Positions 16,962 to 50,178 of a DNA stretch of 64,000 bases are shown here, in pieces. A program made the position numbers and the translations under genes. The notes beneath the pieces are model-generated. The model searched no databases and had not been told where the DNA came from. It was given only the letters and a program-made list of their open reading frames with translations. Source of the stretch: Azolla caroliniana (Eukaryota > Plantae > Polypodiophyta); contig JBHGNT010000001.1 in the NCBI GenBank assembly GCA_043228905.1, positions 26,350,001-26,414,000 on the forward strand, in the 5' to 3' direction. Position 1 is the first letter of the stretch. Each line of letters begins with the position of its first letter.

Positions 16962-18752
16962 GCGTGGATATACCCGATGAAGAAGAAGAGAGAAGTGCTC
17001 CGCAAGCAAAGGCCTCCTTGACATAATCCACTCGGACGTATGGGGACCGGCTCAAACACCGACGCTCAGCGGATGCCGCTACTATGTCACCTTCATCGAC
17101 GACCACTCGCGCTACGCGTGGATATACCCGATGAAGAAGAAGAGAGAAGTGCTCTCCCACTTTTAAAGGCTCAAAAGCCAAGTGGAGAAAGAAACCGGTC
17201 GGCACATTCGATGCCTACGATCGGACGGAGGAAAGGAGTACTTCTCTGACGAGTTCACCTCCTACCTCCAAGGTGAAGGCATTCGTAGAGAATTCTCATG
17301 CCGACACACTCCCCAACAAAATGGAGTCGCCGAAAGGAAGAATCGGCAAATACTTGAGGTAGCACGCACCATGATGCATGAGAAGCACATGCCGAATTTC
17401 TATTGAGCCGAAGCGGCATCCACGGCCGTCTATCTCATGAACCGGTGCACCACCAATGGAGTCCATGAGCTAACTCCATACGAGCTCCTCGTCGGATGGA
17501 AGCCTATCCTCTCGCACCTCAAGGTGTTCGGAAGCATTGCGAATGTACGCATCCCGAACGAAAGTCGAGAGAAGGCCGACGCGAAGTCGGAAGAATGTAT
17601 CCTCATAGGATATTTGTCCGTGAAAAAGGCGTACAAGTGCTTCAACCCTTCGACCCGAGTGGTGCGGATAAGTCGCGACGTCGTTTTCGACGAATTGGCA
17701 TCTTGGTATAAGCCCGATGCGACTCCATCCGACCCGATCGAGGAAGAGTTGAATGCCAACTCGGATGACGAAATTTGACCAAGTCCTCCACCGAAGGACA
17801 ATCCAAGCTCTACTGAGCTAATTGGCTCACAAGAGCCTCCACGCGATGAAAACACGTCGCAGCCAAGTCCGACATCGGACAAAGGCAAAGGTAAGATGCC
17901 CAAATACAAAGTCGAGGTCCACCTCGACGACCGTGATTCGGATGATTTGGCTCGCTCACTAGACAGTGAGTTCGGTGTACCCATCATGAGGACACCCGGA
18001 ATAAAGAAGGCGCTCACATCGACAAACGAGAAACTCCGCCGCTCATCACGAGCGAAGACCCAAGTCACTCGTTACGCCTACAACGAGTATCTGGCCCATC
18101 ACTATGCCCTTGCGATGAAGGTAGTGGCCGAACAAGAGCCCGAGGATCCAAGCCTTCTTCACAGGCTTGAGGGGGAGAATAAGTTGCGGAGAGCCGCGCA
18201 ACGAAGCTGCGAAGACGCGAAGAAAGCTGCACCGATGCCGACGAAGCCGAAGGAAGCTAAACCGGATGTTGGACGCCTCACACTTGAGCTTGAGGGGGCG
18301 TGTTGAGATATCAAGCTCAACTAGTTTAATCTAGTTAGTCAACACATGTAACTTAGTAGTTACCTAGATCGAATCTAGTTAATGTGTTGACCTTAAGCCT
18401 TTAAATAGGACCTTGTACTTAAGTGGGATATTCTAGATCCTCCACTCCTTAATACATTTAATGTAGGACTTACACATAAGTACCTATGTTCTACCCACAC
18501 ATGTGCACCCTTGCACATGGGTTGTATATATACCTCATTGTGGGTATTTTTGTATGTGATGACACTTTTCAATATAGTCAATCATCCCCCATTTATCTTC
18601 ATGTTCATAAGTGTAACTTCCTCTCTCTCTCTCTCTCTCTCTCTCTTCCTCTCACACACTCTCACGTGCATATCATACTAATCTTCCGCTGCTTAACGTA
18701 ACCATATAATTAGTCTCTAATTAACCCTGGTTAATTACCTAATTACTTAACA
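16962..18752 (+). mobile_element. 3' half of Ty1/copia element 'Copia-3', lacking RT and RNase H
   Basis: Integrase core similar to Copia-2, then EQEPE jumps directly to the cttgaggggg end-of-pol motif. PPT at about 18291-18300 and 3' LTR 18301-18752. Confidence 0.88.
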
Positions 18753-21194: not shown

Positions 21195-21399
21195 CTAACT
21201 GGTAGAAAATGGAACCCATGGGATTAAGGCAAGTTATTGTATTCTATATACAATGTCCTAACTACTAGACCATGGAACCCACAAAACGTCAACTTTTAGA
21301 GTTCCATCAACACGCTCTTATTTCTCTCTTGAATCTATAGGAATGCCAACCAAGGTTCAAATAGGACCTAGTGGATAAACCAATGCAAATCTGAAATTG

Positions 21400-21471
21400 A
21401 GGTTCCACAGAGACTTGAACTCGGGTTACTGGATTCAGAGTCCAATGTCCTAACCGCTAGACCATGGAACC
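21400..21471 (-). tRNA. tRNA-Gln(CTG) array copy with one T-stem mismatch
   Basis: 72 nt, differing from the perfect copy only by CTCTG instead of CTCGG in the T-stem. Confidence 0.6.
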
Positions 21472-22312: not shown

Positions 22313-22384
22313 AGGTTCCACCGAGACTTGAACTCGGGTTATTGGATTCAAAGTCCAATGTCCTAACCACTAGACCATGGAACC
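22313..22384 (-). tRNA. tRNA-Gln(TTG) array copy with intact cloverleaf
   Basis: GGTTCCATGGTCTAGTGGTTAGGACATTGGACTTTGAATCCAATAACCCGAGTTCAAGTCTCGGTGGAACCT. Acceptor, anticodon and T stems pair; anticodon TTG. Confidence 0.75.
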
Positions 22385-25083: not shown

Positions 25084-25121
<38 letters not shown>

Positions 25122-27135: not shown

Positions 27136-30100
27136 GTCCGGCCAAAATAGGAGCCATTTGGTTGGACCATCCTAGCTATGTAGAGTTAGCTCCTAGTCGT
27201 GGTTCCATTTCATCAAATCAAGTGAGTCAAGTTTTTTCTACATGTCATCGAGTCCTAGGCTCTGTCCTCCTAGATTCTGGAGCCAACTCTTGTTTCATGG
27301 ATCGTGAATATGCCTTGTCACAAAACATCCTCTTGAATAAGCTCCCACACCCAGTAACCATAGGAGTCATTGATGGCCGTCCCATAACATCAGGAGATAT
27401 AGTCAAGGAGTCCGAGCCAATTCAGATAGTTCTTGGTGATTTGGCAAGCATAATCTCTTTCAACATTATTCGCAGTCTGGAACACCCAATAGTGCTAGGT
27501 TTCCCTTGGTTTGAACTCCATAACCCGAAGATTGATTGGATGAAAAGAACAATTGAGGAGACTCAGGAAAAAAGCACAAGCCCCGCATCCCTCTCTCCGA
27601 CATGTGATACTAGATCCCCTAAGTTATCGACCATCTCTCTACGAAAGTTGCGTGAGGAAGGGGGGAACGAGGTCATGTTTGTCTTCAAAATAGTAGCAAC
27701 TCTGTTGAGCGGCAAGCTCAATTGGAGCCGGATCGGCTGAATAAGCTTGAGCCGGTGAGCGAGACGGATCAGTGAGCCGGTGAGCACCCGGTGAGCTGGG
27801 GAGCTGGTTAGTTAGATCCATCAGTAACCGGAAGCCTAGTAGCAGCTAGACTAATAGGGAGTTAATACTCTCGTAGTTAGTGTCAGACGTTGTCATGTTG
27901 TTACGTGCGTGCGTGTAGAAGGGGCGGAACCATGGGGATCTCAGACTAGGGAGTAGAGGAGAAAGTATAAAACATGATATGGAGGCTTAGCTCAAGAGGA
28001 GAAGAGGAAAGAATAAGACCACAACATAGAAGGAGAGATTGGCGGAGGTAAGATACTCAACAAGATATATTAAAACAACGAATGGTTACAACAATGGTGG
28101 CCGCATGGGCTGCACCAAACGACTATGAGAAAACCCTAACCGAAGATGAATAAGGAAAACCCTAAACGAAACCCTAACCCTAAAACGGTAAGAACTCTAG
28201 ACTAAGTGGTATACCTCTCATACGCAAATTAGGCAACCCCTTCATAAGTGACCCCTCCCTTCCTTTTATAGCCCAAGGAGGGAGGAACCTTACAATGTGG
28301 GATAAAATTTCCCCTCTTATTTCTATACACCATTTCTTAGTATACGTGTGCACATGTTGCACACCACCGACTTGCCCTTTCCACCCCGGTTTCCACCTAT
28401 GGACGAAAATCTTCACGACATCCGCCCCCACCAAACCGCACATCCACCGGTATGTGCCAAGAAGGGGAAAGAGGTGAGATTTTCGGCCATGGCGGTCAAC
28501 CGAGTCCTTAGCGTCTTTGTCAGCTTTGCCCGACTTCGTCTTCCACTTCGAGCAAGCCCATCCGTCCCACATGGACCACCGTAGCCTCCCGGTCTGCCAT
28601 ATCCGTCGTTTTCTCTCGAACCGTCGGCTCAATCCGATCCACCATACTCGACGGGGTTCGCCGAACCACTGTCTCCGCCCAGTCCACCAGACCCGGTCTT
28701 TGCAAACCTCTCTTTGCCTTCCTCCGTTTTCCGTGCACGACCTTGGAACGAATCCTCGTTCTTCCCGACTGTTTGCCGAATATCGCACCGTGTGCTCCTC
28801 GTCCACGCTTGTCTCGCCTCGGCCGCTTCCTCGACTCGGCATTGCCACGCGCCGAACTTTGTCGTCGATCATCCTCGTGCTCGTTGCTCGGCCCTTACAC
28901 GGCCACATCACACGTCTCGCTCTCCGCTCCGCTCTGCATACCCTTTCGAAAAGGTACGTTGCTTCTCCGACATCCGTGTCGGTGCTCTCGTCTTCGGTGT
29001 CCTCCGCAACCTCCAATGTTGCTGCTTCGCCCTGAGGTACATCCTCTTGGTCCGCCTCGTATGTCCTCTGGATGCGCTCCGGATCTCTCCGATCGCACTC
29101 CGGTTTCCGCCCTTTGCGTGCCGCTCCTTCGGTTTTATCGTCTCCGCATGCCGACGCCTCGGTGTGTCGACTCTTCCCGATCCGCGCTTGCCTTCCGTAG
29201 GCTCTTCCTGTGCGCCGATGTTGTTCCCCGAATATGCACTCATTCTTTGGCCCTTAGGCGACCCCATTCCGTGTTCCTTGCTTCTCCTTTGCCCACTGTG
29301 CTCTCTCACCGTAGAGCGTACTGTCATCCCGACCTTCGTGTTAGTGTCCCTCGAGGCTCTCGTTACCGCCTCGCCTCGACTTGCGCCCTCTTGGCCCGCT
29401 TGGCCTTGCATGCCCTCCGGGAAGCCGTTGCGTCTTCTCTTCCCGGTGTGTACCCCGTTGTTCTCCACGCACCATCCTTCGCTCTCGTCGTTCATCCGCC
29501 GATCCCAGCAACTCACCGCTCTGTCTCTTGCCGCGTGCTTGCCTCTCAAAGGCTCGACCTGTCCGCCGTTACCGGTCACTCGTTGCCGCTCTTCTGGGTG
29601 CATGCTTGCTTCTTGGCCCTTTGCCGTCCGTTGTGCATGCTTCGTGTTACATGCTTCATCCGCTGTAGACCCAACCTCCGCGTCGGTCTCTTCGTCCTTC
29701 GTTTCCGTAGCCCCTTTCGACTCCGGCTTGCTGTCTTGGCCCTGCTCGTCCGTCCGGATATCCGCTACAGTCCCCGATTCTGCATTTGCCTCCAACTCCT
29801 CGCCGCCACCCGCCGTCTCTTCGCAACCGCCAAAGTCTTAAGAATAGATGTGGAGGGTCCCTCTTGCATTTGGCCTCCCACCGAGTCGTACTCCTCATGC
29901 ATGCTTGGCCTCCTTCTCGCGCTCACCGGCTCCCAACAGGTGTTGTGGCCCGTTCGCCTCGACCTCCAATCATGCCGACTTAGCCTTCGCCCGGATCGGT
30001 CTCAGCCGATCGAGTTCCGGTTTGGTCGGCTCCCTTCTGTAATCGTAACCGGCCGGTACATGTTTGTCCAAACAAATCCGGCCTTGCCAACTCTTCTTCG

Positions 30101-30336
30101 GTTCGGGCCCGGTTGACCAGACCCCGCTCCAATCTTCTTCCACGTCGTCTTCCGGTCGTGTTGGATTATCAACCAGTTCATTTTCTGGTCGGGTCGGTTC
30201 CCGACTCTCTCCTCTTTGCCACTCCTAACCTCTCCGTCGGTCCTATTGTATATGCCCGTTCCGGGCCTCGCATCCTCATCTTCGTACGTGTTCGCTTCGG
30301 GCCACGCCTCCTCATGACCACGACCCTTCTCCCCGG

Positions 30337-30928
30337 TGTCGTGAAGAATTTCGGCTAGAGGCGGAAACCGGGAACATTGGCTACATCGGCGGGGTGCAGC
30401 GTGTGAACGCACCCATGTACATTTAGTGTGAATATCGAGGGCACCTTTATGGCGCCGAAGAGTAGTCAAGTCGGGGCAGACGATCCCATGTAAGGCGGGA
30501 TTTGTCCCACATTGTAACGCATCCCTTTCCTTGTTCTATAAAAGGAAGGGAGCACCCTTTGTGAAAGGGTTGCCCATTTTGCATTAGAGGGTATACCGTT
30601 AGGTTTAGAGTTAGGTTCTTCTTCTTCTCCTTCTTCGTGTTTCGCTTAGGGTTTGCTTGGTTCGGCCTCCTGTGCAAGACCCCGCTCGGCACGACGAGCT
30701 GAGAGCTCCCCGACGGCGGCTTGACAGCAAACGACTACTATAACCTACGTTAGTCCGGCTCGACGCCGGGAATGTATTCTTCCCTTCATACATATATATA
30801 TACGTTTGTCTGTGTATATTCGCGTCGTTGTTGGCGTCGGGTGCTTACCCTTTCCTGCGTTTTCTGTACATAAGGCGTGAGTCGGGTTGTGCATGTGTGT
30901 GTGTGCGTGTGCGTGAGTCAGTGTTAAG

Positions 30929-30972
<44 letters not shown>

Positions 30973-33900: not shown

Positions 33901-34425
33901 CCTTTGTGAAAGGGTTGCCCATTTTGCATTAGAGGGTATACCGTTAGGTTTAGAGTTAGGTTCTTCTTCTTCTCCTTCTTCGTGTTTCGCTTAGGGTTTG
34001 CTTGGTTCGGCCTCCTGTGCAAGACCCCGCTCGGCGCGATGAGCTGAGAGCTCCCCGACGGCGGCTTGACAGCAAACGACTACTGTAACCTACGTTAGTC
34101 CGGCTCGACGCCAGGAATGTATTCTTCCCTTCATACATATATATATACGTTTGTCTGTGTATATTCGCGTCGTTGTTGGCGTCGGGTGCTTACCCTTTCC
34201 TGCGGTTTCTGTACATAAGGCGTGAGTCGGGTTGTGCGTGTGTGTGTGTGCGTGTGCGTGAGTCGGTGTTAAGCACGCTCTCTCTCTCTCTCCCTTCGAT
34301 TGCTTCCGGTGTGTCTCTGGGATGCCCCAGAAACAGTGAAGCACGACTTCCTACGCTCCATCACTCTCTAGTCCATGACCCCCGTGGTCCCGCCTTTCTC
34401 CACGCACGCACGTAACAACGTGACA
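30337..34425 (+). mobile_element. non-autonomous gag-only gypsy element 'Gypsy-8' (4.1 kb)
   Basis: LTRs 30337-31102 and 33682-34425; tRNA-Trp PBS at 31107-31124; PPT ggtgggggcgga; perfect 4-bp TSD ccgg. No pol motifs seen. Confidence 0.93.
31140..31994 (+). CDS. Gag-like protein of Gypsy-8
   Basis: 284-aa ORF 15 nt after the PBS. VGRFNGDKVPSYLEAY and KVLLFVRSID are homologous to the gag of Gypsy-7 and Gypsy-9. Confidence 0.8.
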   Translation: MESEDDNLAEIVAEVVLESARVVMRREAAQQAVERVVERVGRFNGDKVPSYLEAYNVEMEECGVDEALRLEFFCRVIAIRRHAEVKELREAHSSWEAFEEALLKAYGGRRKSRGWHDFDQWVASAKNHRGTTKAFRDFERRLARLPEREQGLVGADKVLLFVRSIDRAEREVIGIELEDDDGANGLTEDWSKVGRVCQWLDNERAEKAKRKVCDGVPSQREEAERKRELARVGVGARIAEACAALDAMLEEEERRRPQAETEKTDLPHATAEDRYHGTTGEGAE

Positions 34426-36732
34426 CCGGTCTTATGTTGGCATTCGAGCGCAGCCGCCATAGTCTCCGGCCCCGGTGTCGAGGGGTCTCTCCTCCGTCCG
34501 CTATGACCTTCCTCGTCGTTGTTTCGATCGTCCGCTTTGCCGCCGCCACCTTCCGTCTCTCCGGTCTCACGTGGGTTCTCGGGGCCGACCGCCGAAGTCC
34601 CTGCAATAGGTGTGGGAAAAGTCTCGATACCATTACTCGCCGATGTCATGTTTGTAGCCACCTTTGTTCGGACGTTGTGGTCCGTGGCTCTCTCGTCCCC
34701 AGTTACGCTAGCCTCGGTTATGCTTGCTACGTCCTTGTCCTCGTCGTCGTCTCGGTTGCCCGCCTTGCCATCGCCACTGTCCGTCGCTCTAGGTCTCACG
34801 ACAGCACTCGGGCCGACCGTCGGAGCCTCTAGGACCGGTGTGGGTAAGGACCCGGCACCACCACTCGTTGTGTTTGTAGCTGCCTCCGTCTGAACGTCGT
34901 TGTCCGTGGCTACCCCGTCTCCGATCGCGGAAGCCTCGATTACGTTTGCTGCCTCCTCTTCCTCGATCTCCTTGCCGTCATCTTGGTTGCCCGCCTTGCC
35001 GTCGCCACCGCCCATCGCTCTAGGTCTCACGCCGGCTCTCGGACCGGATGCCGGAATCTCTAGGACCGGTGTGTGTAAGGTCACGGCACCGCCGCTTGTC
35101 TCCTCCCCACTCGATGTTTCGGGCCGCCATGTCCCGAATCCATAGTTACCGGCCTTCATGGTCGTCCCTTCACCACAAGGCAAGAGGGTCGCTTGCTCCG
35201 CACCTCTCCCATGTCGCCATCGTACACTCTCCCGGCCTCCGTATAGGCCCTGTCTTCTACGTTTAGGGAGGCTTCTTCCTCCGCATCCTCCGATCGCCTC
35301 CGGCCCGACTCCATAATAAGCCCTTCTTTAGCTTTGAACTTCGCCTTCACGCTCTCGCACGCCTCCCATACCAACGCCTCTAGGTTGTACTCCTCCGGTT
35401 GATCGCGCGTCGAGCTCTCTTCCGATGGTAGTGCGTAGTCGCTCTCCGCCACTCATGGATGTTGTTGCCTACCGCTCCCCATCGGGTTGCCGGCATACCC
35501 ACTCCGGTTTCACGTATTCGTATGTGTCCAATAGAGCTCCCTCAAAGGACTCCCATGACTCGTGAGCTTCTTGAAGCTCCTTGACCTCTTTGTGCACTGA
35601 TACGGCCACCACTCGATGAAAATATTCTAGCCGCATCACTTCGTTCACGCCCCTCCTCATCATCTCGGTTGTGTACGCTTCCAAGAACCTCAGGACTTCG
35701 TCCCCGTTGAATCGGCCGACTCGATCGACCACCCTCTCGACGGCTTGTTGAGCCGTATCTCGCCTCGCCTTATTCCGTCCGGCTTCCATCACGATCTTTG
35801 CCATCATCTCCTCGAAGTCGAAGTCTTCTTCCATCTGCATGCTCCCTTGCCGCCCTTCACGTCGGGTTCACCAAAGATGTCACGTTGTTACGCACATGCG
35901 TGGAGAAGGGGCGGGACCACGGGGGTCTCAGACTAGGGAGTAGAGGAGAAAGAATAAAACATGATATGGAGGCTTAGCTCAAGAGGAGAAGAGGAAAGAA
36001 TAAGACCACGACATAGAAGGAGAGATCGGCGGAGGTAAGATACTCAACAAGATATATTAAAACAACGAATGGTTACAACAATGGTGGCCGCATGGGCTGC
36101 ACCAAACGACTATAAGAAAACCCTAACCGAAGATGAATAAGGAAAACCCTAAACGAAACCCTAACCCTAAAACGGTAAGAACTCTAGACTAAGTGGTATA
36201 CCTCTAATACGCAAAATAGGCAACCCCTTCATAAGTGACCCCTCCCTTCCTTTTATAGCCCAAGGAGGGAGGGACCTTACAATGTGGGATAAAATTTCCC
36301 CTCTTATTTCTATACACCATTTCTTAGTATACGTGTGCACATGTTGCACACCACCGACTTGCCCTTTCCACCCCGGTTTCCGCCTATGGACGAAAATCTT
36401 CACGACAACACTCGAGTGAGCATTGAAGTACACCGTACTTCTGTCAATCCGTATGGACTTATATAAAAGTGTTCGTTGAACACATACTATGTACAGAGTG
36501 TTGATATAATTTTTGAATAGTGATTCTTGTTCTGCTCTCTCTGTCTCTCTCGCGTACTGTTAAGCTCTCCATTAAACCTGTTCTCTGTTTTCTGTTTTCT
36601 GTTTTCTATTTTCTATTGCTTCCACAAGCTATTTTTTTTTACATGGTATCAGAGTGCGAGGGTTGAGAACCTCTACAACCGACATTCGCTTTCGCAAGAA
36701 GAAAACCTAACCTTTGAAAAAAAAAAAAAACA

Positions 36733-39700
36733 ATGGATAGAGGAATGGCTAGCTCGCTTCTGGTGGAGAAGCTCGACAGATCTAACTACGCATCTTGGTC
36801 ATACAAGGTGCACCAGTACCTGCTTGGGCATGGTTACTAGAGTTATGTCGACGGAGCTAACGACACAGGACCTAATGCGGCACACAAGGACTTCCCGGTG
36901 TGGGAACAATCGGCAAGCAGAGTGATGTACTGCTTTACGTCCAGTGTCAGAGACCAGCTGTTGAGCCACATCTGAGATGCCAAGACCCCAAAAGAGGCTT
37001 GGGGAAACCTGAAGAAGGTGTTCGACGCAAGCACTACTGCCCTGAAGCTGTAACTCCGACAGGAGTTGAGCAATGTCCGACAGAAGGACATGTCAATGGC
37101 TGATTACACGGCCAGAATCAAAGAGATCTGTGACTCGTTGCCTCTATCAACATCACGGTAGAGGAAGCCGAGATGGTACAGGTCTGTCTTGGGGGCCTGG
37201 CGTCTAAGTTCCGAGCTTTCTGGATAGCTATATGTACGAGGGAGAATACGCCGTCATTTTTCGACTTACAGTCGATGCTCCTTGTAGAGGAGAACCACGC
37301 CGGTGCGTCAACAAGTGCACCCACCAACAACCGGATGTTGTACACGGAGGCGGATCGGCCCCGTGGGTGTGGTGGACGAGGCGGGTCGGCACGCAATGGA
37401 GGCGGCTGGCAAAGGCAAGACCGACGGCACAAAGACCGTGCCGACAGCAGTTCCGAGACTTCCGTGGGAGTCAAGGTGGAGCCGAAGGCCGGCAAGACAA
37501 ATCTGCCACGGAATGCTGGTAGTGTGGCAAAAAGGGCCACAGAGAAAGCGAGTGTTGGAAGAAGCGCGCCGATTCGGACAGATCTGGATCCGGCAAAACC
37601 GGTCGGGAGAACCGGCAAAGCTCGCACTACGCGCAAGGATCGAAAGGATCCGGAACCGGGAATACCAATAAGGGGCCAACCTTGGTGATGAAACACGAGG
37701 CTAACTCGATGAAGAAGACCACTTCCAAATCGGAGGAAGTGTGGTACGTTAATTCCGGTGCGTCAAATCACATGACGAACCACAAAGAGTGGTTCTCCTA
37801 CTTGGAGAAACCGGAACAACCGGGAGTTGTCGATACTGGAGACGACACTCCTCACCCAATCGTGCATGTCGAAGAAGTTCCCCTGAGCCACGTCGAACAA
37901 AGGGGGAAGCTTATGAACGTATTACACGTTCCGACTATCACGAAGAACCTGGTGTCAGTTTACGCACCTCGGGTGCTTCATCGAGGAGGAGGGCCAGATT
38001 ATCGCACAAGGGCGCAAAGATAGGAGGATGTTCATCCTTGACACCAATGATGTTGGCACCGCCTTGTTCTCCAAAGGACAGAAGGTTGAATCAAACATCG
38101 ACCTGTGGCACAAGCAGATCGGCCACGTCAATTACCGAAGGCTTCAAGACCTGCAGATGAAACAAGTTGTTTTCGGTTTGCCGAAAATTAGTGACCGAAA
38201 GGCCCAAGTATGTGAAGCCTACCAACTCGGGAAGCAACGCCGGCTTCCATTCCCCGCCGAACAAAACCGTAGTCGTAACAAGCTCAACCTTATTCATTCG
38301 GATGTATGGGGACCGGCATAGAACGTGAGTCTTGGCGGGAGTCGATACTTGGTCTTCTTCATCGACGACTATAGCCGGCACACATGGATCGACCTCATTG
38401 AGCGGAAGAGCGAAGTCTTCGACTGTTTCCGGAACCTCCAGAGCATGGTGGAACGGGAATCAGAGAGGAAGATCAAGTGCCTGCCGTCAAATGGCGGAAA
38501 AGAATATTTTTTTGGCCAATTCAACAGTTATCTGTAGTAAACAGGAATTCGGAGAGAGTTCAGTTGCAGATACACACCGGAGCAAAACGGTGTGGCCGAA
38601 AGAAAGAACCAGTCGCTTGACGACGCGGCAAGGGCAATGCTGGAAGAGAAGAGCATGCCCCATTTCTACTGGGCGGAGGCGGTCCGGACGGCCATCTACA
38701 TCCAAAACCGAATCGGTGACAAGGTGTCCGTGCATGAGCTGTATTTCGGGCGCAAGCTGAATTTGAGACACCTTCGGATTTTCGGCAGCATAGCATATGT
38801 GCATGTGCCGGATGAGAAGCGGAGGAAGCTGGATGCAAAATTGGAGAAGTGCATCCTCGTCGGCTACTCACATGAGCAAAAGGGGTATAAGTGTTATAAC
38901 CCCCGGACGAAGCAGGTCCGAGTTAGCCGCGATGTTGAGTTTGATGAGACGGCATCATGGTATGCCTTACCAGCTCCGACTTCTGACCCCGACCCGATAC
39001 CGGAGGATGAGGCTAGTGAGCCTGAACCGGTCCAGATAGAAGACGTGGAATACGCGGATTAATCTCCGGCAACAACCAAAGCGTAGATCACTTGATGACA
39101 ATCAAAAACCATAGACTAAATGGGGATGAAGGTAACTCGACAAAACAGAAAGAGAATACACAGGATATTAACGTGGAAAACCCTGAGAGGGAAAAACCAC
39201 GGGAGTCCAAAGACTCCAAACTATCACTCTGTAAAGTAATACAACAGGGAGCATAGAGGCAACGACCTCTTGCTCACAATCTTCGCCTAGCGGCGGTTAC
39301 AACAGAGACACAATCTCTGTATGTCGCTCTCTCTCTCTCTCACTTACGCATTGTACAGAGGTTACACCAATAACTCTATCATCATACCAATTAAGTTTGC
39401 CCTAGGTCATATTTATACTAATATGACTTTCGGGCTATTTACAAATATAGCCCCAGTGGGCTCTCTGGAACATATTTACACCGGGCTTGCAACATCCAGT
39501 TCTCACCGGGTCTTCCTTGCCGGGTACTCGTCATCCGGTTCTCACCAGGTCTTCCGTTGCCAGGTACTCCACATCCGGATTCGGCCTCGGCTGAGTTGCT
39601 CATCAACATTGTTCTTCTCACTTCCCATCCGGAGGGACCTGTTTCCTAACAAATGATGAATCCGGGACTCAAGAAGAGAGTTCGGAATCGTTTCGGTTGA

Positions 39701-41975
39701 GTGGGCCGAACGAGAGACTGGGTCAATCCGACCAGTCGGATGAGGAACCAACGAGTAATGAAGACTCTGTCGTGCTCTCCCCACGCAAGGAACCGAGGAG
39801 ACGGTTCACGCACAAAGAGAAGGGGAAGAAGAAGATGTCAGATTATGAAACCAGTAATGATGAGTCGGATCAGAGCGGATCCGACTCCGGAAAGGAAAAT
39901 GATGGTTCTTCGGCACCGAAGACCGAACCGGCCAAGAAGGGCCTCAAACCAAGTAACAGTGGGTTACGCCAGTCAACCCAACAGAAGGAACCTGTTAAGC
40001 GGTACGGGTACAATGAGTACATGGCGCATCATTATGCGTACATGATCAAGGTGGCGGAAGTGCGTGCGCCGGAGAGCTACGCAGAAGCGGAAAAGGACGC
40101 ACATTGGCGTGCCGCTATGGAAGAAGAGATGCAGGCACTTGATGCCAACGATACATGGGACCTAGTTGACCCTCCCCGTCACAATAAACCGATCGGATGA
40201 AAGTGGGTGTACAAGGTAAAGTACAACGCCGACGGTTCAGTTAACCAGTACAAGGCCCGGTTTGTGGCGAACGGATACGCACAGACCCACGGAATCGACT
40301 ATGACGAGACCTTCGCTCTAGTAGCGAAGATGACGACGGTTCGTGTGGTTCTGGCGGTTGTTGCGGCAAGGGGGTGGCATCTTCATGAGATGGATGTGAA
40401 GACTGCATTTCTTCAAGGAGATCTTGAAGAAGAGGTCTTTATGATACAACCCCCCGGTTTCCAGACGGAGATGAACAAGTCGACGGTATGCCGGCTGAAG
40501 AAGTCACTTTATGGCCTAAAGCAAGCCCCTCGAGCTTGTAATGCGAAGATCACGCACCAGTTGCGTAAGATGGGGTTTGCGGCCTCCAAGTCCAACTCTT
40601 CGTTGATCATCCGGCAAGGCCCGGATGGTCCAGTTTGCATCTTGTTGTATGTTGATGATCTGGTCATCACCGGACCCGGACTCGATGAAATCAGTTGAGT
40701 CAAGTCCCAGTTGTTAGATGCATTTGAGATGAAGGACCTGGGCGACCTTCATTATTTTCTTGGGATCGAGGTGATCCGAACCCCCAAGGGCATATTGCTC
40801 TCATAGAGGCACTATGTGTTGAATATGTTGTACAAGTTCGGCATGACAGAATGTTGAACTGTCTCTACACCCTTGGACCGGAACCAGAAGCTCTATCCCA
40901 ACTCCGGACCGGCCTGCAATGAGAAACGGTTCTGACAAATTGTCGGAAGCCTTATATATTTGACCATCACCCAACCCGACATAAGCTATCCGGTCGGTGT
41001 GATTAGCCAATTCATGCAGAAGCCGACCGTAGAGCATCTTCAGTGCGTGCACCGAATATTGCGGTATGTGAGCGGCACGAAGGACTAGGGACTGTTATAC
41101 CAGCGAGGTATAACCGAAGAGCTGGTCGGTTACACAGATGCCGACTGGGCCGACGATGCATCAGATCGTCGATCAACCTCTGGTTATATGTTTTCCCTTG
41201 GTAGCGCGGTTGTTGCGTGGAGCAGCAAAAAGCAGCCAACAGTTGCTCTGTCGAGCATTGAGGCTGAGTATCGGGGCGCTACCGTTGCCACCTGTGAAGC
41301 CATTTGGCTTCGGCGACTGCTGCAAGACCTATGGATCGAGGTACTGATCCCGATTCTAATCTACTGTGACAACATAAGCAGCATGCAACTCACCAAGAAC
41401 CCCGTATTCCATGCTCTCGCACAAAGCATATAGAAGTGCACTATCACTTCGTGCGTGAGCGTGTCCTGAGCAGTGAGGTCGAACTTCGGTATGTTCACAT
41501 GGATTGGCAAGTTGCTGACATCTTCACCAAACCACTCGGATCAGACAAGTTGCAGCACTTCACCGAAATGCTTGGTGTTCAGCATCTCGACGTGCCACAC
41601 TTGAGGGGGAGAACAGGCAAAAACACCGGAATGGGCAAAGGCAAAGAGACTGCCGAATGCGCCAATGAGGGAAGAACCGATACAGGGAGAGACAAGAAGA
41701 AGAAAGGAGCCGAGTCGACAAAGGAAGTCGACACATCCGAACAAGTCGGAACAAGCAGCATCGATGGCAAAGTCAAGAAGGACAAAGCCGACCGAAGGAA
41801 GAAGGCCAAGACCCGGACATGGTCCGATGTGGTGAAGGGCCTCGAATCGGAAGACGAATCGGGAGCGACCAATTTGGACAAGAGCTGGAACGAATCGGAG
41901 ACAGTCAATTCAGTTCAACAGATAGATTTGGAAGGACCGGATCAATTCAAGGCCAAGAGGACGAGAAGGCAGTGA
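36733..41975 (+). pseudogene. Copia-6 gag-pol, multiple stops and frameshifts
   Basis: Pieces with VEKLDRSNY, WYVNSGAS, HSDVWGP, YKARFVANG, LYVDD, YTDADWA and HYHFVRE. Confidence 0.9.
39034..39651 (-). mobile_element. solo LTR of the Copia-1/Copia-5 family inside Copia-6
   Basis: Collinear with LTR 3154-3842 (gtggaaaaccc, gaggcaacgacctc, catatttatactaatatgactttt-like block, cccatccggagggacctgt...aaca). Left boundary is approximate and no clean TSD is visible. Confidence 0.8.
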
Positions 41976-42428
41976 AAGTCAACGCCAACACGAAGGAATC
42001 GGCGGACCGGCACGCGTCGAAGGCACAGCAACGAGGGAGCTGAATTGGGCCTGTTGAGCAGACAAGCCGACCGAGGAGCGACACATTCGAACAAGTCAGA
42101 GCAAGCGGCAGCAGCGGCAGAGTCAAGAAGGACAGAGCCGACCGAAGGAAGAAGGCCAAGACCCGGACATGGTTCGATGTGGTGAAGGGCCTCAAATCGG
42201 AAGACGAATCAGGAGCGACCAATTTGGACAAGAGTTGGAACGAATCGGAGACAGTCGATTCGGTTCAACAGACAGATTTGGAAGGACCGGATCAATTCAA
42301 GGCCAAGAGGACGAGAAGGCAAAGAAAGTCAACGCCAACACAAAGGAATCGGCAAACGAGCACGCGTCGAAGTTACAACAGCGAGAGAGCTGAATTGGGC
42401 CTGTTGAGCAGACGAGCCGACCGAGGAG
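41729..42428. repeat. 2 x 350-bp tandem duplication in the 3' region of Copia-6
   Basis: gtcaagaaggac at 41772 and 42122; gtgaagggcctc and gatcaattcaaggcc repeat at the same offset. Confidence 0.92.
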
Positions 42429-42891
42429 GTCGAGGTGCGTAGAACAAGAGGGGTCGCAGCAAACAAAACTGGACAGGACGAGGAGCGCGAGCAAGACGGA
42501 GTGACGCCTGAAGGAGCTGGGCAGAAGGACCGGTTGCCACCGACGTTGACACTATGACCGGACCTCAAGTTGAGCTTGAGGGGGAGTGTTGAGCGGCAAG
42601 CTCAATTGGAGCCGGATCAGCTGAATAAGACTAAGCCAGTGAGCGAGATGGATCGGTGAGCCGGTGAGCACCCGGTGAGCAAAAGAGTCGGTGAGCTGGG
42701 GAGCCTGTTAGCCGGATCCATCAGTAACCGGAAGCCTAGTAGCAACTAAACAACTAGGGAGTTAATACTCTCGTAGTTAGTGTCAGACGCTCGAGTGAGC
42801 ATTGAAGTACACCGTACTTCTATCAGTTCGTTGTCGCGTTGTTATGCGCGTGCATGTAGAGGGGCGGGACCACGGAGGGTCTTGAACCGAG

Positions 42892-42945
<54 letters not shown>

Positions 42946-45428
42946 GAGAGAGACTTGTAGATACGCGAAGAGAGAAGGAGAGATATAGAACGTAACACTC
43001 GATTTCAATAACAAGAGTTTACAACGACAAGAGAATACAATAACAAGAGAATACAAGAGAATACGACTCTGACAATTACAACCGGCAAGGCGACGATGGA
43101 CCCGACACAGGGATCCTACTCACACACACAGACAGCACTCGCTCGACTCCTAGAAACAAAACAAAAGGGGGAGAGCCTCTCCTGGAAGCGCACAGGTTGT
43201 CCACGAAGCAGAGGCAACGAGCTTCCGACCCACAGAGACCGATGACCGGCGGAGAAGAGAGAGCTTGGCACCCAGATCTGCAACAGCACCTCGCCCTCCC
43301 TAGCACGCGATCCCTGTTCTTTCCTCCTCTCTCTCCTTCAATAGTTCCCCAAAAAGGGGTGCCCCCTTTTCCTTAGCCAAACTGCTTTATTACCTGTCCC
43401 TGTCGACAGAGATACGCACAAAATCCCCTAATAAATGTGCACTACCTAGTATTTACACCAGTCTCCTTAATTACGAATTATGTACAATATATCAATCCTC
43501 GCGTCCTCCCGTGTAAGAGCCGGTTCATGCGCCTTTTTCTTCGATTCCGCTTATGGCCTGTTTTCTTCACGACATCCACCCCCACCAAACCGCGCATCCA
43601 CCGGCATGCGCCAGAGACGGGTAGACACCGAAGAAAACTGGCTTCACTCGTCGTTCTCCGATTCTCCGCCGAACCCGAACTGATCGTCGTCGTTACTCTC
43701 GCACGCCGGCTCCGGCTCGTCTTCGAACCGCTTCTTGAACTCTTTGATCTACTTCCCGGCCACCGACACTGCTAACCGTGTACCGTCGAGTTCCGCGAGG
43801 TGGTACGTGTCGTTGTCGTTCGCGCTCATCACCGTGTAGGGCCCGAACCATCTCCTAGAGAACTTTCGCACCGCCTTGTGCTGATTGTCGAGGTTGTTGT
43901 GGTATACCAAGACCCAGTCACCTTCCTCGATCTTCTTTGGTCGCAACCGGTGCGTCCGGTTGAACCGGGTCTTGTTCCGCTCCCTTGCCGCTCGCAGCTT
44001 TTCCTTCACCTGTATCACGTCCTCCGGCCTCCGCTCGAGTCGCCGAATCCGCGCCGCCAGCAACTCCTCCCAGCTCATTTCGTCCTTACAATCCACCGCC
44101 GCCCATGAAGAAACCGTTCATTCCATCGGCATGATCGGCTTCTATCCGTACATCAGCTCTGCCGGCATAAACCATGTCACCGAACTGTGCGTAGTTCGGT
44201 CCGCCCACAATGCGTAAGGAAGGACTCGCGGCCAATTCCCGACCTGCCCTCCACATGCACGCACCAACGCCTTTACGATCGGCCCGTGCCCACGTTCCAT
44301 CTTTCCGTTCGCCTCCAGATTGTACGTTGTAGTGAGGGAGAGTTTGATGCCTAGCCGGTCGAACGGCTCCTCAGCCTCCCGCACATCCAGCTCTCCCCGG
44401 TCCGCCACGATCCTCCCGATGCACCCGTACCGACACACCACTTCTTCGATCAGGAACCGGCATACCGCTGTCGTCTTGCTTTGCAGTGGACGGCCTTCCA
44501 CCTGGTTCGTTAAGTCTTCCCGTGCAAGCACCAGGTATCGCTTCTGTCCTACCCCCATCGGCATCATCACCAAGTCTGCCATCCACTTGAAATGGACCGT
44601 AGGCAAGTAGGTCGGGTGTAGCTCGTCCCGGTGTCGGACTATGGAGTGCATCTGACAGCTTTCGCAAGTTGTTACGAACCGATCCACGTCCTGGTACAGC
44701 CCCGGCCACCAGTACTTCTCCTTCAGTTTCTCGAACGTGGCCCACATTCCGCGGTGTCCGGCCCAGGGGCTCTCGTGAAATGCCACCAATAATTTCCCCT
44801 GTTCTTCTTTCTTTCCCACTACTTGGAGTGGGATGCCGCTCCTCTTCTTTGGGTGCCTCCATATGCACCCGTCCCGCAGGAAGAATCGGTACACCTTCTT
44901 CCGTACCCGGTTCGCCTCCTCTCTCGCCCATGCTATATCCGGCGTCATCGTCTGTAGGAACCTCCCGATTTGGAGCCACTCCCCGTCGTACCTGCTTTCG
45001 TCAAATTCGTTAAGCATCGGAGTGTCCCTTTTCCTCGTCGTTACGTTAGCCGACCCGAAGAAGTCCTCGCCAACTTCTTCGTCATCCGAAACCATGTCGT
45101 CTTCGTCGTTGAACCTTGACCTCGAAAGCATGTCGGCCATGGCATTGTCCTTTCCGGAGATGTGCCGTATCTCCGGGTTCATGGACTTAATGTACGCTAT
45201 CCACCGGAGCATTGCTAGGTCCGGCCTCGCGCATCCGGAAACCATGCCGAGTATCGGCAGGCAGTCCGTCTCGATGATCACCTCCATCCCGATCAGATAA
45301 TCCTTGTCGGCCTTGACTGCCGAAATGACACCCCAAAGCTCGCACTTAACTTGGGCATATCCTCGCTGCCGCTCACTCAATACCTTCACCCCGAACCGGA
45401 TCGGGAATCGTACGTCGTCCTTGTCCTC

Positions 45429-46952
45429 CTAACTGATTACCCACCCGATCCCGGTCGGGCTAGTGTCCACCGTCACACAGATGGGAACATCCTTGCCGTA
45501 AACCGCTTTACGGAGAGCCGGCGCTACCATAAGCGCCTCCTTTAGTCTCCGTACTAACTCCGTGTGCTCCGTTCTCCACTCAAAGCTACGCCCCTTTTTC
45601 AATAGTCCGTAGAGGGGTTCCGGGATCCAGATGTGGGAGAACACGCATGCTCCCAAGAATCTGCGGACCTCCGTGACCGAATTGCAATCATGCTTCATCG
45701 CAGAGATGGCTTCCACCTTGGCCGGAGACGGTTTCCGACCGTATGGTCCGCATAGGTGCCCAACGACCATGATCTCTGATTGCCCGAAGGCCAACTTTTC
45801 CCCGGAGAAGGTGAGCCTTGCGCCTTCTAGTCTCTGCAGCACCTTCTCGCAGTCATCGATGTGGGACGCCACGAAATTCCAACATCCGTCCGGCCCGACT
45901 GCCTCGTCCTTTTCCTCCACCGGGCATCCCCTGATCGGGATGTCGTCTAAGAATGGCATGGTGATGTCCGGGATACAATCCCTGAGCACTTTGTTCATCG
46001 CGTTCACCATGTGAGCCACTGAGTTCGTCCCTCCTTGTGGCAGGGTACACATCCGCACTAGGCCGAGAGGAGTCTGCATCGTCGTAATGTCTCTGCTCTC
46101 CACGGCTAGTTGGAACTGATCGTACCCCGAGTACAGATCACCGACAGAATAGATCGACCTTCCAGCGAAGGCCTCCGCGAACTCGTCTATGGTCGGTCTG
46201 ATTCCTGCATTACAGATGGTCACCTTGTTGACCGGTTGCAGGTCCTGAATGAAGTGCAGCGTGTCGTTCTTCTTCGGCACCGTAAACCACCGATTCGAAT
46301 ATGGGGCACTCGACGGTTCGAGGATGCCCATCTCCACCTTTTGCTTCAAGAGCACCATCAACTTCGGGATGTGAGCTCTCGGCACCGGAATCGGCTTGAT
46401 ATTCCACGATACATGCGGTACCGTGAAGATCACCATCGGTTCGACAACTGTCGGGTCTACGCACCCGATCTCCTCCGGTGAGAATGCGAAAGCCTTCCCG
46501 TGCCTCCCGAGCATTCTCCGAAACCGGTCCTCCTCCACTGGCAGTAGAAAGCCGCCCCCACCAACCTTGAGCTCCCGTAGCGTTATGTCGGTGAACCAAT
46601 GCCCTATGCCAACCGGATTCCGTAAACTTGGGTCCAACGCAACCCCTTTTATCCGCTCCTCGCTGCCCTCCGGCAAGGGTGCCGCGATTGGCCTCACCTT
46701 TCGGTCCACAGTCTTGTACTTTGTATCCACGCAGGCCATCCGATCCGACCCGATCCTTTCCCCGAAGTCCGCGATGACTTCGTACATTCCCATTGACCCT
46801 ACCGGAACGGTCCGATCTTCTCTAAGGTCTTCACCGATCACCTTTCGCAGTTCACCCAAGGTGTCGTCAAAAGAGACCGCCTCCACGGCGCCGCTGATGT
46901 CTTCATCGGGGAAGAGGACTCTACATCCCCTGAGCCGCTCCTCCGCTCGCAT
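45429..46952 (-). CDS. Gypsy-9 reverse transcriptase and start of RNase H
   Basis: 507-aa ORF with DLYSGYDQ, LPQG, FLDD and VDTSPTGIG. Confidence 0.9.
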   Translation of the reverse strand: MRAEERLRGCRVLFPDEDISGAVEAVSFDDTLGELRKVIGEDLREDRTVPVGSMGMYEVIADFGERIGSDRMACVDTKYKTVDRKVRPIAAPLPEGSEERIKGVALDPSLRNPVGIGHWFTDITLRELKVGGGGFLLPVEEDRFRRMLGRHGKAFAFSPEEIGCVDPTVVEPMVIFTVPHVSWNIKPIPVPRAHIPKLMVLLKQKVEMGILEPSSAPYSNRWFTVPKKNDTLHFIQDLQPVNKVTICNAGIRPTIDEFAEAFAGRSIYSVGDLYSGYDQFQLAVESRDITTMQTPLGLVRMCTLPQGGTNSVAHMVNAMNKVLRDCIPDITMPFLDDIPIRGCPVEEKDEAVGPDGCWNFVASHIDDCEKVLQRLEGARLTFSGEKLAFGQSEIMVVGHLCGPYGRKPSPAKVEAISAMKHDCNSVTEVRRFLGACVFSHIWIPEPLYGLLKKGRSFEWRTEHTELVRRLKEALMVAPALRKAVYGKDVPICVTVDTSPTGIGWVIS

Positions 46953-47107
46953 CCTCTCCCGGCCGCTGACGCCGGTTATAGTACAAACTCCGTTGTCGAA
47001 GAACCGAAATTTCCTACCTATGGTACAGGTCTTCTTCCGTACTGTACATTTGTGGGGTTCTTCCCGGGTGTCCGAACTATCGCAGCCCCACGCCTTGATA
47101 GCCCTCT

Positions 47108-47824
47108 CTAAAAATCCACTCGGGTTTCACCGCCGAGGGCCTCACGGTTATGCTCGTGGTTTGGTCGCACCGTTAGGAACTGGACCGAGTGACGCCCGTC
47201 TTGGCTCTTGACTCTTGCATAGGCTGAACCGTTGTCTAGCACCTTGGTCTCCATCTGTGTCGCCGTGATATATGGCTCTCCTAGTATAACCGGATGCGAG
47301 GACGTCTCCTGCACGAAGAAGTGTTGGTCGATCTCGACATCGCCGATTTTCACCCGTACGTTCAGACAGGCCCCATGTAGTTCTTCCGTGGCGCGCGTCG
47401 CTACCCGTATGTTCCAGCCGTGCTTGGTGTTGATCGGCCATTTACCCTTCTTGTAGAAATCCATGGACATCAGGTTGATTTCGGATCCATGGTCTACCAA
47501 CGCCACCACCGGTTCCAGAACGTTGTCGATCCGTACAGGGGTTTCCATAGTTGCCCTGGCCCAATGCGGATTCGTGTAGTGGCTTCCTGCCAGCTCGTCT
47601 TCCAGGGCTTCGTCTTCCAGGTGCATGGTCCGCACCTCCACCGGCTTCTCCGGTTCCGGCTCCGTCGAGAGCCTCTTCCGCTTCACCAAGTCTACGATAG
47701 AGTCGTGGAACTCCCTCTTGGCAATTCCCAGCACCTCCCACAATGACAGCTCCACTTTGCTGTCGAGGATACGTTTCTCCAGGACCTTTCGCAGGTCTGT
47801 GGTCCTTTCGATCTCGGTGCTCAA
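47108..47824 (-). CDS. Gypsy-9 end of ORF1: aspartic protease
   Basis: ALVDHGSEINLM and VILGEP motifs; ends GAT TTT TAG. Confidence 0.85.
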   Translation of the reverse strand: MSTEIERTTDLRKVLEKRILDSKVELSLWEVLGIAKREFHDSIVDLVKRKRLSTEPEPEKPVEVRTMHLEDEALEDELAGSHYTNPHWARATMETPVRIDNVLEPVVALVDHGSEINLMSMDFYKKGKWPINTKHGWNIRVATRATEELHGACLNVRVKIGDVEIDQHFFVQETSSHPVILGEPYITATQMETKVLDNGSAYARVKSQDGRHSVQFLTVRPNHEHNREALGGETRVDF

Positions 47825-50178
47825 CCGAAACCCCGCCTGCTTCTTTCCATCCGGCGCACCTGGGTTGCTGGCACCGGTCGGTTTCGATCTGAACCGGGTC
47901 TCATACCTCTACGGGGGGCTGACCCCTCTGGCCTTTCCTGCCCATTTGTCCTCCACCAGAACCTCGTAGTTCTGGCAAGCGGCTTCTACGAAGCCCGTTT
48001 TCTCTTCGACCGGATCGTCCCAACTGATGACCTCCTGGACCCGCTATTCCGCGCAGTCCGCCTCTTCCTTCTTCAGCCGAACTCCGGAGAGGCCTTCTAG
48101 CACTAGCGGCCAGAATCCGGAGTCCTTCGCCTTCCGGGTCTCATCACCCCCAACCCGAATTCCCGCCGACACCGAGTAGTTGACGGCTTCGACGTGCCGT
48201 GCCGCGGCCTCTTCCATCAACCTCTTCATTCCGTCGCGCCCCCCGTATTCAATTCTAGGGCTCTCCGGGTCTCGCTCGCGTGCACCCGCCCATTCCAGAG
48301 GTACACCACGTTGGTCCTGAGCGCGTCGGCGAAATCCGTGCAATCCTTCTAAATGTGACCGATCGCGTCACACCACATGCACCGCTGCCCAGCCGGCGGC
48401 CTCCGGTCGCGAGGTTGTTCGCCGCTGTCTCTCCGGGCCTGTGCGATCTGCAGGTCGTACACCATCTGTGTCAGCTCCTCCAGAGCCGCTCCTCCGAATG
48501 GGCCTCTGACCACGTCGTTCAATGCAGACCCCGACTCTGGCCAGATTCGGGTATCTTCCTTCCTACCGGCCGGTACCGATACCGGCTCCTCGAGCCTCCT
48601 CCCCAGGACCGGCCCCGACCCCAACGAGCTTCCGTCACTCTAATCGCGCCGTTTGTCAAAACGCTAGCAGACCCGTTTTACCACGGCCCAGTCTGTCGTA
48701 AGCCCTTCGTCCGTTTCCAATAGGGGACCCACCTTTTCCCTGTCGAGCGCGTCCACCGACTTGACAAACAGTAGTACTCGACTTGTTTCGAGCACCGTCC
48801 GGTCCAGCGTTGACAGCCGCGTGAACCGTTTTTCGAACTCCTAGAGGAGCACCGACGTGTTCCTCCCCTTTCCGGGGCTTTCCACCCACGCCATGAAGTC
48901 CCGCCTCGATAGCCGAAGCGAGTCGTCAAACCCGTACTTCTCGAGGAGCTGCTGCTCGAACTCCTCCCAAGTCTGGCATCCGGCCAGCACCTCGAGCACC
49001 TCCGTGTGGATGCCCGGCGTCACCACCCGAGGGAATCTAGACTGCCGCCTGTCCACCGGGATATCCCTCATGATCATTTCGGCCCGGTAAGCCTCCAAAT
49101 AACTTGTGGCGTCTTTTTCTCTGAAACGGCCTATAGAGCCGATGATCGATTCAATGGCTTTGTCGAGGGTACCCGTCCCCTCACGAGCGCTCACCAGCCG
49201 GTCAACGGCCACCGCCATTGCCTCTGCTAGCTCTGATCCTCTCATCTTTCGACTCCTTTTCCACCCCGTTCACGTCGGGTTCACCAAAGATGTCGCGTTG
49301 TTACGCGCATGCGTGTAGAGGGGCGGGACCACAGGGGTCTTGAACCGAGGAGCGAGCGAGAGAGAGAGAGACTTGTAGATACGCGAAGAGAGAAGGAGAG
49401 ATATAGAACGTAACACTCGATTTCAATAACAAGAGTTTACAACGACAAGAGAATACAATAACAAGAGAATACAAGAGAATACGACTCTAACGATTACAAC
49501 CGGCAAGGTGGCGATGGACCCGACACGGGGATCCTACTCACACACACAAACAGCACTCACTCGACTCCCAGAAACAAAACAAAAGGGGGAGAGCCTCTGT
49601 TGGAAGCGCATGGGCTGTCCACGAAGCAGAGGCAGCGAGCTTTTGACCCACAGAGATCGACGGCCGGCGGAGAAGAGAGAGCTTGGCACCCAGATCTGCA
49701 GTAGCACCTCGTCCTCCCTAGCACGCGATCCCTGTTCTTTCCTCCTCTCTCTCCTTAAATACTTCCCCAAAAAGGGGTGCCCCCTTTTCCTTAGCCAAAC
49801 TGCTTTATTCCTTGTCCCTGTCGACAGAGATACACACAAAATCCCCTAATAAATGTGCACTACCTAGTATTTACACCAGTCACCTTAATTACGAATTATG
49901 TACAATATATCAATCCTCACATCCTCCCGTGTAAGAGCCGGTTCATGCGCCTTTTTCTTCGATTCCACTTATGGCCGGTTTTCTTCATGACACCCTATAG
50001 ACTTGTATAAAAGTGTTCGTTGAACACATACTATGTACAGAGTGTTGATATAATTTTTGAATAGTGATTCTTGTTCTGCTCTCTTTGTCTCTCCCGCGTA
50101 TTGTTAAGCTCTCCATTAAACTTGTTCTCTGTTTTCTGTTTTCTATTGCTTCCGCACGCTATTTGTTTCTACAAACTC

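What the first reader, a model, noticed from the sequence alone, without database searches (positions are those of the whole stretch)
16962..49996. tRNA-Trp-primed gypsy lineage makes 4-bp target duplications centred on CpG
Seen: the Gypsy-8 TSD is ccgg/ccgg (4 bp, not 5). Gypsy-7 has acgt/acac where the empty sister LTR reads ACGC. Gypsy-9 has tcgt/ccct where the empty sister LTR reads CCGT. The right flank of Gypsy-B (assigned to the lineage by pol and PPT similarity) is GCGT. All four targets are NCGN. Three elements share an 18-nt PBS complementary to the tRNA-Trp 3' end, 4 nt from the LTR. Known: most plant LTR elements give 5-bp TSDs with weak sequence preference. Inference: an integrase with CpG (possibly methyl-CpG) target specificity that steers insertions into other transposons. 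The sample is only four.
Basis: partly seen in the sequence, partly recalled or inferred. Interest (0 to 1): 0.75.

Follow-up and report, generated by a model that had tools for sequence, protein, structure and literature searches.

The report
Phygy retrotransposons inserting at CpG sites
These plant jumping genes duplicate a four-base target with CG in its middle when they insert, but this habit is already described for the Phygy group of the moss Physcomitrium, to which they likely belong, and whether the CG must be methylated is untested.

Summary
In the window one element has a perfect CCGG duplication and two overlap their empty sister LTR by exactly 4 bp (ACGC, CCGT), while four neighbouring copia/chromovirus elements give 5-bp duplications. 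Gypsy-B offers one flank only. In 71 metagenome loci with the same LTR end, 50 of 55 distinct outer junctions read NCGN against 3.9% background; the other LTR end gives 14 of 18. But this is published: REXdb (PMC6317226, Additional file 5) lists Phygy as 4-bp TSD 100%, NCGN, tRNA-Trp primer 81%. The window's protease is 60-67% identical to multicopy Physcomitrium patens proteins; no chromodomain or archaeal RNase H was found. A tree against REXdb references could not be run, so membership is likely, not proven. Methyl-CpG reading is untested and no reader domain is seen; CpG is about 3-6 times denser in this window's element nest than outside it, so apparent steering into transposons may be passive. 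This scan noted NCGN duplications before in a likely fungal genome (e1-10582392).

The parts
27891..36407 (-). Gypsy-7: non-autonomous element (gag remnant, no pol), LTRs 27891-28420 and 35878-36407, about 4.4 kb without the nested Gypsy-8; inserted in the 5' LTR of a copia element
   Evidence: LTRs 97.0% identical; gag 36% identical to Gypsy-9 gag over 81 aa; no pol hit there by tblastn
27887..27890 (+). Gypsy-7 left target copy ACGT (ACGC in the empty sister LTR)
36408..36411 (+). Gypsy-7 right target copy ACAC
35856..35873 (-). Gypsy-7 primer binding site, 4 nt from the LTR
30337..34425 (+). Gypsy-8: non-autonomous element, LTRs 30337-31102 and 33682-34425, nested in Gypsy-7
   Evidence: LTRs 97.6% identical; gag 38% identical to Gypsy-9 gag over 196 aa
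30333..30336 (+). Gypsy-8 left target copy CCGG
34426..34429 (+). Gypsy-8 right target copy CCGG
31107..31124 (+). Gypsy-8 primer binding site
42832..49992 (-). Gypsy-9: 7161-bp full-structure but decayed element (gag, DUF4100 region, protease, RT, RNase H, integrase), LTRs 42832-43577 and 49291-49992; inserted in the 3' LTR of the same copia element
   Evidence: (LTRs 94.6% identical)
42828..42831 (+). Gypsy-9 left target copy TCGT (CCGT in the empty sister LTR at 36448-36451)
49993..49996 (+). Gypsy-9 right target copy CCCT
49269..49286 (-). Gypsy-9 primer binding site
43881..45428 (-). Gypsy-9 RNase H and integrase region (H2C2 finger, DDE core with DRGEL after the second aspartate, C-terminal domain, short acidic tail; several stops)
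6830..16961 (+). Gypsy-B: 5'-truncated member of the lineage; pol 6830-7410 and 12855-15360 (split by a copia at 7411-12854), PPT to 15432, LTR 15433-16961
16962..16965 (+). Gypsy-B right flank GCGT, inside a copia integrase gene; single flank, no partner
27703..50173 (+). Host copia element whose two LTRs serve as each other's empty site; its own 5-bp duplication AACTC/AACTC is an internal control

Best explanation
These are decayed copies of several Ty3/gypsy families that likely belong to the Phygy lineage; they leave four-base duplications centred on CG, likely because their integrase cuts the target with a 4-bp stagger and reads the central CG step directly, with no methylation shown to be needed. 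Shown: 4-bp duplication, central CG, avoidance of T at the first and A at the last position, shared primer site and PPT, pol only in Gypsy-9 and Gypsy-B. Inferred: Gypsy-7 and -8 were moved in trans by an autonomous relative with the same LTR ends; the two-fold symmetric intasome bends the target sharply at a flexible pyrimidine-purine step, as in 4-bp retroviruses, and extra base contacts narrow YR to CG. Candidate contacts (inferred, untested): the nearly invariant D-R-G-E-L after the second catalytic aspartate, which aligns to PFV D-Q-G-A-A-F with one residue fewer at the target-contacting Ala188 position, and the conserved loop before RRWFGPY in the C-terminal domain. Insertion into other elements would follow largely from their higher CpG density.
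For: Window duplications and four 5-bp controls. 50 of 55 distinct junctions NCGN versus 3.9% flank background, P about 1e-64; no other offset exceeds 5 of 55. CG at positions 2-3 from the other LTR end in 14 of 18, which fits one shared CG only if the duplication is 4 bp. Three of the five exceptions (CA, TG steps) are what deamination of a CG would give. CG is 50 of 54 central YR steps against a 23% share in the window, so flexibility alone is not enough. REXdb Phygy row: 186 elements, 4 bp 100%, NCGN, tRNA-Trp 81%, no extra domain. 15 of 120 listed hits of the DUF4100-protease region are P. patens proteins; 10 of them put in the tree are 60-67% identical over the protease. RT only 26-28% identical to the window's chromoviruses. 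No chromodomain or RNase H of archaeal type in Gypsy-9 or in 8 of 8 longer relatives. 4-bp retroviruses favour a central YR and disfavour T at 0 and A at +3 (PMC4422553 section). DRGEL conservation: R 32, G 33, E 31, L 33 of 34; alignment to PFV; best fold match PFV integrase, E 7.8e-14.
Against: No direct RT/INT tree against REXdb Phygy references: the reference FASTA and Additional file 1 were too large to read; the P. patens hits are unnamed predicted proteins covering gag-protease and the segment before RT, not RT or integrase. Gypsy-9 is 7161 bp, below the Phygy range 7656-9968. TatI also has 4 bp and tRNA-Trp. In the 7 metagenome contigs that hold both outer ends of an LTR only 1 pair of flanks is identical, 2 differ at one letter and 4 at two or three; I read this as short-read chimerism (4 other contigs show primer site and PPT on one LTR), but these contigs do not confirm the duplication length. 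The structural model is middling (pLDDT 64, pTM 0.41) and has no DNA, so it cannot name the contacting residues. Nothing here excludes a methylation requirement.
Confidence: 0.82

Rival explanations
1. The integrase, or a host partner, prefers methylated CpG and so aims the elements at already silenced transposon DNA.
For: All four window targets lie inside other elements; 20 of 53 metagenome flanks match window sequence at the junction, 19 of them in elements and 7 in the lineage itself; Phygy nests often in Tcn1 elements in P. patens (PMC6911290 passage); Phygy domains are enriched in predicted centromeres of a liverwort (PMC12885004 passage); LTR pairs diverge mostly by transitions (12 of 16, 15 of 18, 31 of 38).
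Against: No reader domain by Pfam, and the modelled integrase ends in a short low-confidence acidic tail. The window is almost all elements, so 4 of 4 says little. CG per kb is 63 in the nest against 11-23 outside. Transition bias dates from after insertion. Ginger1 transposons also pick CCGG/CCGT with a gypsy-like integrase. None of this measures methylation.
Confidence: 0.12
2. The elements are a separate 4-bp, tRNA-Trp-primed lineage (TatI-like or unnamed) that shares the NCGN habit with Phygy but is not Phygy.
For: TatI has 4-bp duplications and tRNA-Trp in 75%. About 250 residues lie between protease and RT, where TatI carries its extra RNase H. The protease tree has no usable root and Gypsy-9 groups with unnamed environmental rows apart from most P. 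patens rows.
Against: No RNase H family hit in that segment in Gypsy-9 or 8 longer relatives at E 0.01; P. patens proteins match across the protease and into that segment; REXdb names Phygy as the only lineage with a motif preference.
Confidence: 0.08
3. The CG centre is chance in a small sample or an artefact of misplaced LTR ends.
For: Two of three window duplications match at only 2 of 4 letters; Gypsy-B has one flank.
Against: 50 of 55 junctions elsewhere, with a search pattern that holds no flank base; both LTR ends agree; three further runs agree.
Confidence: 0.01

Closest known systems
Phygy lineage, non-chromovirus Ty3/gypsy of Physcomitrium patens (Neumann et al. 2019, PMC6317226; passages, section 9, Additional files 5 and 6 read)
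   Same: 4-bp duplication, NCGN motif, tRNA-Trp-type primer site, no chromodomain, no archaeal RNase H, coding region filling the interior; protease 60-67% identical to multicopy P. patens proteins.
   Different: Host is probably not P. patens (protein identity to it is only 60-67%); Gypsy-9 is about 500 bp under the published size range; two short non-autonomous families are present; the logo here is V-C-G-B (49 of 50), which the passages read do not give.
TatI (same paper)
   Same: 4-bp duplication, tRNA-Trp primer in 75% of 4 elements.
   Different: TatI has an archaeal RNase H between protease and RT, not found here; no motif preference is listed for it.
Selgy (same paper)
   Same: Non-chromovirus, 4-bp duplication, no extra domain.
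   Different: tRNA-Ala primer in 90%; average 5.0 kb; no motif listed.
Ginger1 DNA transposons (Bao et al. 2010, PMC2836005; passages read)
   Same: Gypsy-like integrase, 4-bp duplication centred on CG (CCGG 75%, CCGT/ACGG 24%).
   Different: DNA transposons of animals with terminal inverted repeats and no RT; commonest target here is ACGT (19 of 50), CCGG only 4 of 50.
Retroviral intasomes with 4-bp duplication: PFV, MoMLV, PERV, XMRV (Serrao et al. 2015, PMC4422553; abstract and two sections read)
   Same: 4-bp stagger, central YR step, T disfavoured at position 0 and A at +3; PFV integrase is the best fold match.
   Different: There YR is raised by about 63% over 22%; here one step, CG, takes 91% of sites.

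Membership tests
Phygy | 4-bp target duplication | tested here: met
   Gypsy-8 4 of 4; Gypsy-7 and -9 overlap 4 on the sister LTR; CG at positions 2-3 from both LTR ends
Phygy | NCGN target motif | tested here: met
   50 of 55 and 14 of 18 junctions
Phygy | tRNA-Trp primer binding site | tested here: inconclusive
   Identical 18-nt site in three elements; the match to plant tRNA-Trp is recalled, no tRNA-Trp gene was available in the window
Phygy | No chromodomain and no archaeal RNase H | tested here: met
   Pfam scans of Gypsy-9 RT and RH-INT frames (to 44142) and 8 of 8 longer relatives, several with the whole C-terminus; tail of Gypsy-9 read by eye
Phygy | Grouping with REXdb Phygy in RT, RH and INT trees | not testable with these tools
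   Reference FASTA too large to read. Proxy: protease 60-67% identical to 10 P. patens proteins, RT 26-28% to chromoviruses
Phygy | Length 7656-9968 bp (descriptive range, not a defining trait) | tested here: inconclusive
   Gypsy-9 7161 bp, a decayed copy with LTRs of unequal length
TatI | Archaeal RNase H between protease and RT | tested here: not met
   No such Pfam hit at E 0.01
Selgy | tRNA-Ala primer site | tested here: inconclusive
   The site is Trp-type by recall only; no Selgy reference was available
Chromovirus (Tcn1) | Chromodomain and 5-bp duplication | tested here: not met
   No chromodomain; 4-bp duplication; the window's own chromovirus gives 5 bp
Methyl-CpG-targeted element | Preference for methylated over unmethylated CpG | not testable with these tools
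   No methylation data; no reader domain found

The most novel reading that the evidence does not exclude
Phygy is the plant branch of an old CpG-targeting gypsy clade that spans mosses, liverworts, ferns and fungi, and its integrase senses methyl-CpG through its own core (the shortened DRGEL loop) without any reader domain, so that it homes to silenced DNA by reading the DNA mark itself. Leads: homologues named from Riccia, Calypogeia, Adiantum and Ceratopteris, nearest other Atlas clusters mostly Basidiomycota, and an unchecked note of NCGN duplications in a likely fungal genome (e1-10582392).
Probability: 0.1. Interest if true: 0.65.

Novelty: new member of a known kind. Interest (0 to 1): 0.18.

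Why it matters
As it stands it is a clean independent confirmation, in what is probably another plant species, of a target preference published in 2019 as one table cell and one sentence. It adds a symmetric V-C-G-B logo, a passive explanation for nesting, and a candidate integrase loop. It would matter more if the CG had to be methylated, or if the loop proved to be the specificity switch: an LTR integrase with a 91% dinucleotide preference is a good model for how intasomes read target bases, and P. patens has methylation mutants (recalled) in which the question can be tested.

Tried and rejected
No whole genome is held for this window, so no genome-wide logo from the source assembly. Viral contigs hold no relative. 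The first read-laying on 27780-31250 was swamped by copies and showed no per-junction flanks; the short stretch worked, though run X11 showed no row at the LTR end. Pairing both flanks of one LTR in metagenome contigs failed as a test of duplication length: 1 of 7 identical. The protease tree (46 rows: Gypsy-9, 15 named, 29 of 86 other hits, one outgroup) has an outgroup branch of 6.85, so its root is unusable. Whether RLG2 or RLG3 of P. patens is Phygy could not be told from PMC7466625 (passages and one supplement). Passages of PMC2864245 and PMC5014426 gave no target motif for Ylt1, so a Ylt1 link is untested. GingerRoot (6 bp, no motif) is not a match. Searches for papers testing methylation dependence of this preference (listings only, 20 of 93 and 25 of 46 shown) showed none; DUF4100 had no paper. 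The Atlas search with the integrase gave only generic clusters. The model and fold search confirm the fold but not contacts. The host group was not determined.

Full report
Setting. The window is a nest of LTR retrotransposons (self-comparison) from a plant; no whole genome is held. Named homologues come from liverworts, ferns and the moss Physcomitrium patens, so a non-seed land plant is likely; I did not determine the group.

Checking the observation. Gypsy-8 (30337-34425) has CCGG on both sides, 4 of 4 at k=4 and 3 of 5 at k=5. Gypsy-7 (27891-36407) and Gypsy-9 (42832-49992) sit in the two LTRs of one copia element, so each LTR is the other's empty site; their flanks overlap the empty site by exactly four bases, ACGC and CCGT. 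The present copies (ACGT/ACAC and TCGT/CCCT) each differ from the empty site by one letter. Nine contigs of run X3 show the empty site of Gypsy-7. Four neighbours serve as controls and all give 5-bp duplications: AACTC/AACTC, GATGG/AATGG, ATCAG/ATAAG (copia) and CAGCC/CATCC (chromovirus). Gypsy-B has lost its 5' part, so GCGT at 16962 is one flank only; it belongs to the lineage by RT (72%), RH-INT (62%) and PPT. The primer site is identical in three elements and 4 nt from the LTR; its match to plant tRNA-Trp is recalled. Gypsy-7 and -8 carry only gag remnants.

Enlarging the sample. A 22-nt pattern for the shared LTR end, holding no flank base, found 71 metagenome loci (12 near-consecutive assembly numbers, so probably one campaign, host not known). 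Fourteen were inner ends beside the primer site and two were duplicates, leaving 55. Fifty read NCGN; flank background is 3.9% (P about 1e-64) and no other offset exceeds 5 of 55. Exceptions are TTAG, GCCC, ACAT, CTGG and ATGG; the last three are what CpG deamination would leave. At the other LTR end 14 of 18 non-PPT junctions have CG at positions 2-3 (one is shared with the 55). The same CG seen from both ends fits a 4-bp duplication. Against this, only 1 of 7 contigs with both outer ends shows identical flanks; I take these for short-read chimeras, since 4 other contigs carry primer site and PPT on a single LTR. Independently, loose ends at this LTR end finish in ACGT in 3 of 4 runs laid. 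Of the 50 sites, 49 avoid T first and A last (background 45%), giving a symmetric V-C-G-B.

What it is. Gypsy-9 encodes gag, a DUF4100 region, protease, RT, RNase H and integrase. Neither it nor 8 of 8 longer relatives show a chromodomain or archaeal RNase H. Fifteen of 120 listed hits of the DUF4100-protease frame are P. patens proteins; the ten placed in the tree are 60-67% identical over the protease. Neumann et al. 2019 (PMC6317226; passages, section 9, Additional files 5 and 6 read) state that Phygy elements have an insertion preference for NCGN and tabulate 186 elements, 4 bp 100%, NCGN, tRNA-Trp 81%, no extra domain. PMC6911290 (passages) also finds 4-bp duplications with GC-rich centres, commonest in Phygy among others, and frequent Phygy nesting in Tcn1. 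PMC12885004 (passages) reports Phygy domains in a liverwort, so range beyond P. patens is not new either. A tree against the REXdb references was not possible. Gypsy-9 is about 500 bp below the size range. I file the elements as likely Phygy.

How it likely works. Shown: the stagger and the motif. From established work: retroviruses with 4-bp duplications bend the target at a central YR step and disfavour T at 0 and A at +3 (PMC4422553, abstract and two sections), which accounts for the V and B positions. Flexibility does not account for CG taking 50 of 54 YR centres when it is 23% of YR steps in the window, so base-specific contacts are inferred. The integrase has D-R-G-E-L after the second catalytic aspartate (R 32, G 33, E 31, L 33 of 34 rows); the profile aligns it to PFV D-Q-G-A-A-F with one position fewer, at the place where PFV Ala188 and HIV Ser119 touch target bases and where retroviruses keep small neutral residues. 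This is a lead, not a result. A model of a close relative (P0247, 89% identical over 52% of the Gypsy-9 query; pLDDT 64) matches PFV integrase best and ends in a short low-confidence acidic tail, with no added reader fold. Ginger1 DNA transposons reach a similar preference with a gypsy-like integrase (PMC2836005, passages; lead from e1-10582392).

Methylation and steering. No methylation data were available. Twenty of 53 flanks (2 of 55 too short, dropped) match window sequence within 60 bases of the junction, 19 in elements and 7 of these in the lineage itself; this is a lower bound, as only the window served as library. Fifteen of 51 flanks have 20 or fewer CG per kb and two have none in 200 bases. 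CG per kb is 59-63 in the element nests, 11-14 in the tRNA arrays and 23 in the last 3.5 kb, though one copia stretch has only 7. A plain CpG preference would therefore already favour elements several-fold. Methyl-CpG reading stays possible; my searches (listings only) showed no paper that tests it.

Verdict. A real, strong and well replicated feature, correctly spotted, but the defining published trait of a known lineage. New member of a known kind; interest 0.18.

Noticed in passing
window 21399-24766 (-), 58231-59880 (-), 61131-61202 (+): A tandem array of tRNA-Gln genes and decayed copies: 14 calls at 21.4-24.8 kb, 3-4 at 58.2-59.9 kb and one on the other strand. Three copies read a CTA anticodon. 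The array is split by a 33-kb nest of LTR elements whose outermost copia (24898-58176) has a 5-bp duplication.
   Followed up: partly
window 27703-50173: Both LTRs of one copia element were hit by the lineage, at two different CpG sites about 40 bases apart within the LTR.
   Followed up: yes
L021, match at 251 (+): One LTR end, the four bases ACGT, then another LTR start: likely a second insertion into the duplicated CpG target left by the first.
   Followed up: no
window about 6830: A chromovirus integrase (4089-6830) is fused directly to the interior of Gypsy-B; the chromodomain end of the first and the 5' LTR and gag of the second are missing.
   Followed up: partly
window 16962-17155: The 39 bases after the Gypsy-B LTR recur at 17117, so the copia integrase gene carries a duplication of about 155 bases and the target can be read intact in the second copy.
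   Followed up: partly
window 15433-16961: The Gypsy-B LTR is 1529 bp with internal CG-rich tandem repeats and shares no alignable sequence with the other three LTRs.
   Followed up: no
window 47108-47908 (-): Pfam DUF4100 hits this region just before the protease (E 5e-05, below the curated cut-off), so the domain and many P. patens 'predicted proteins' are likely pieces of this retrotransposon lineage; nearest other Atlas clusters are mostly Basidiomycota.
   Followed up: partly
window 18734-20900: A copia stretch with very low CpG (7 per kb, observed/expected 0.23) beside elements with ratios near 1.
   Followed up: no
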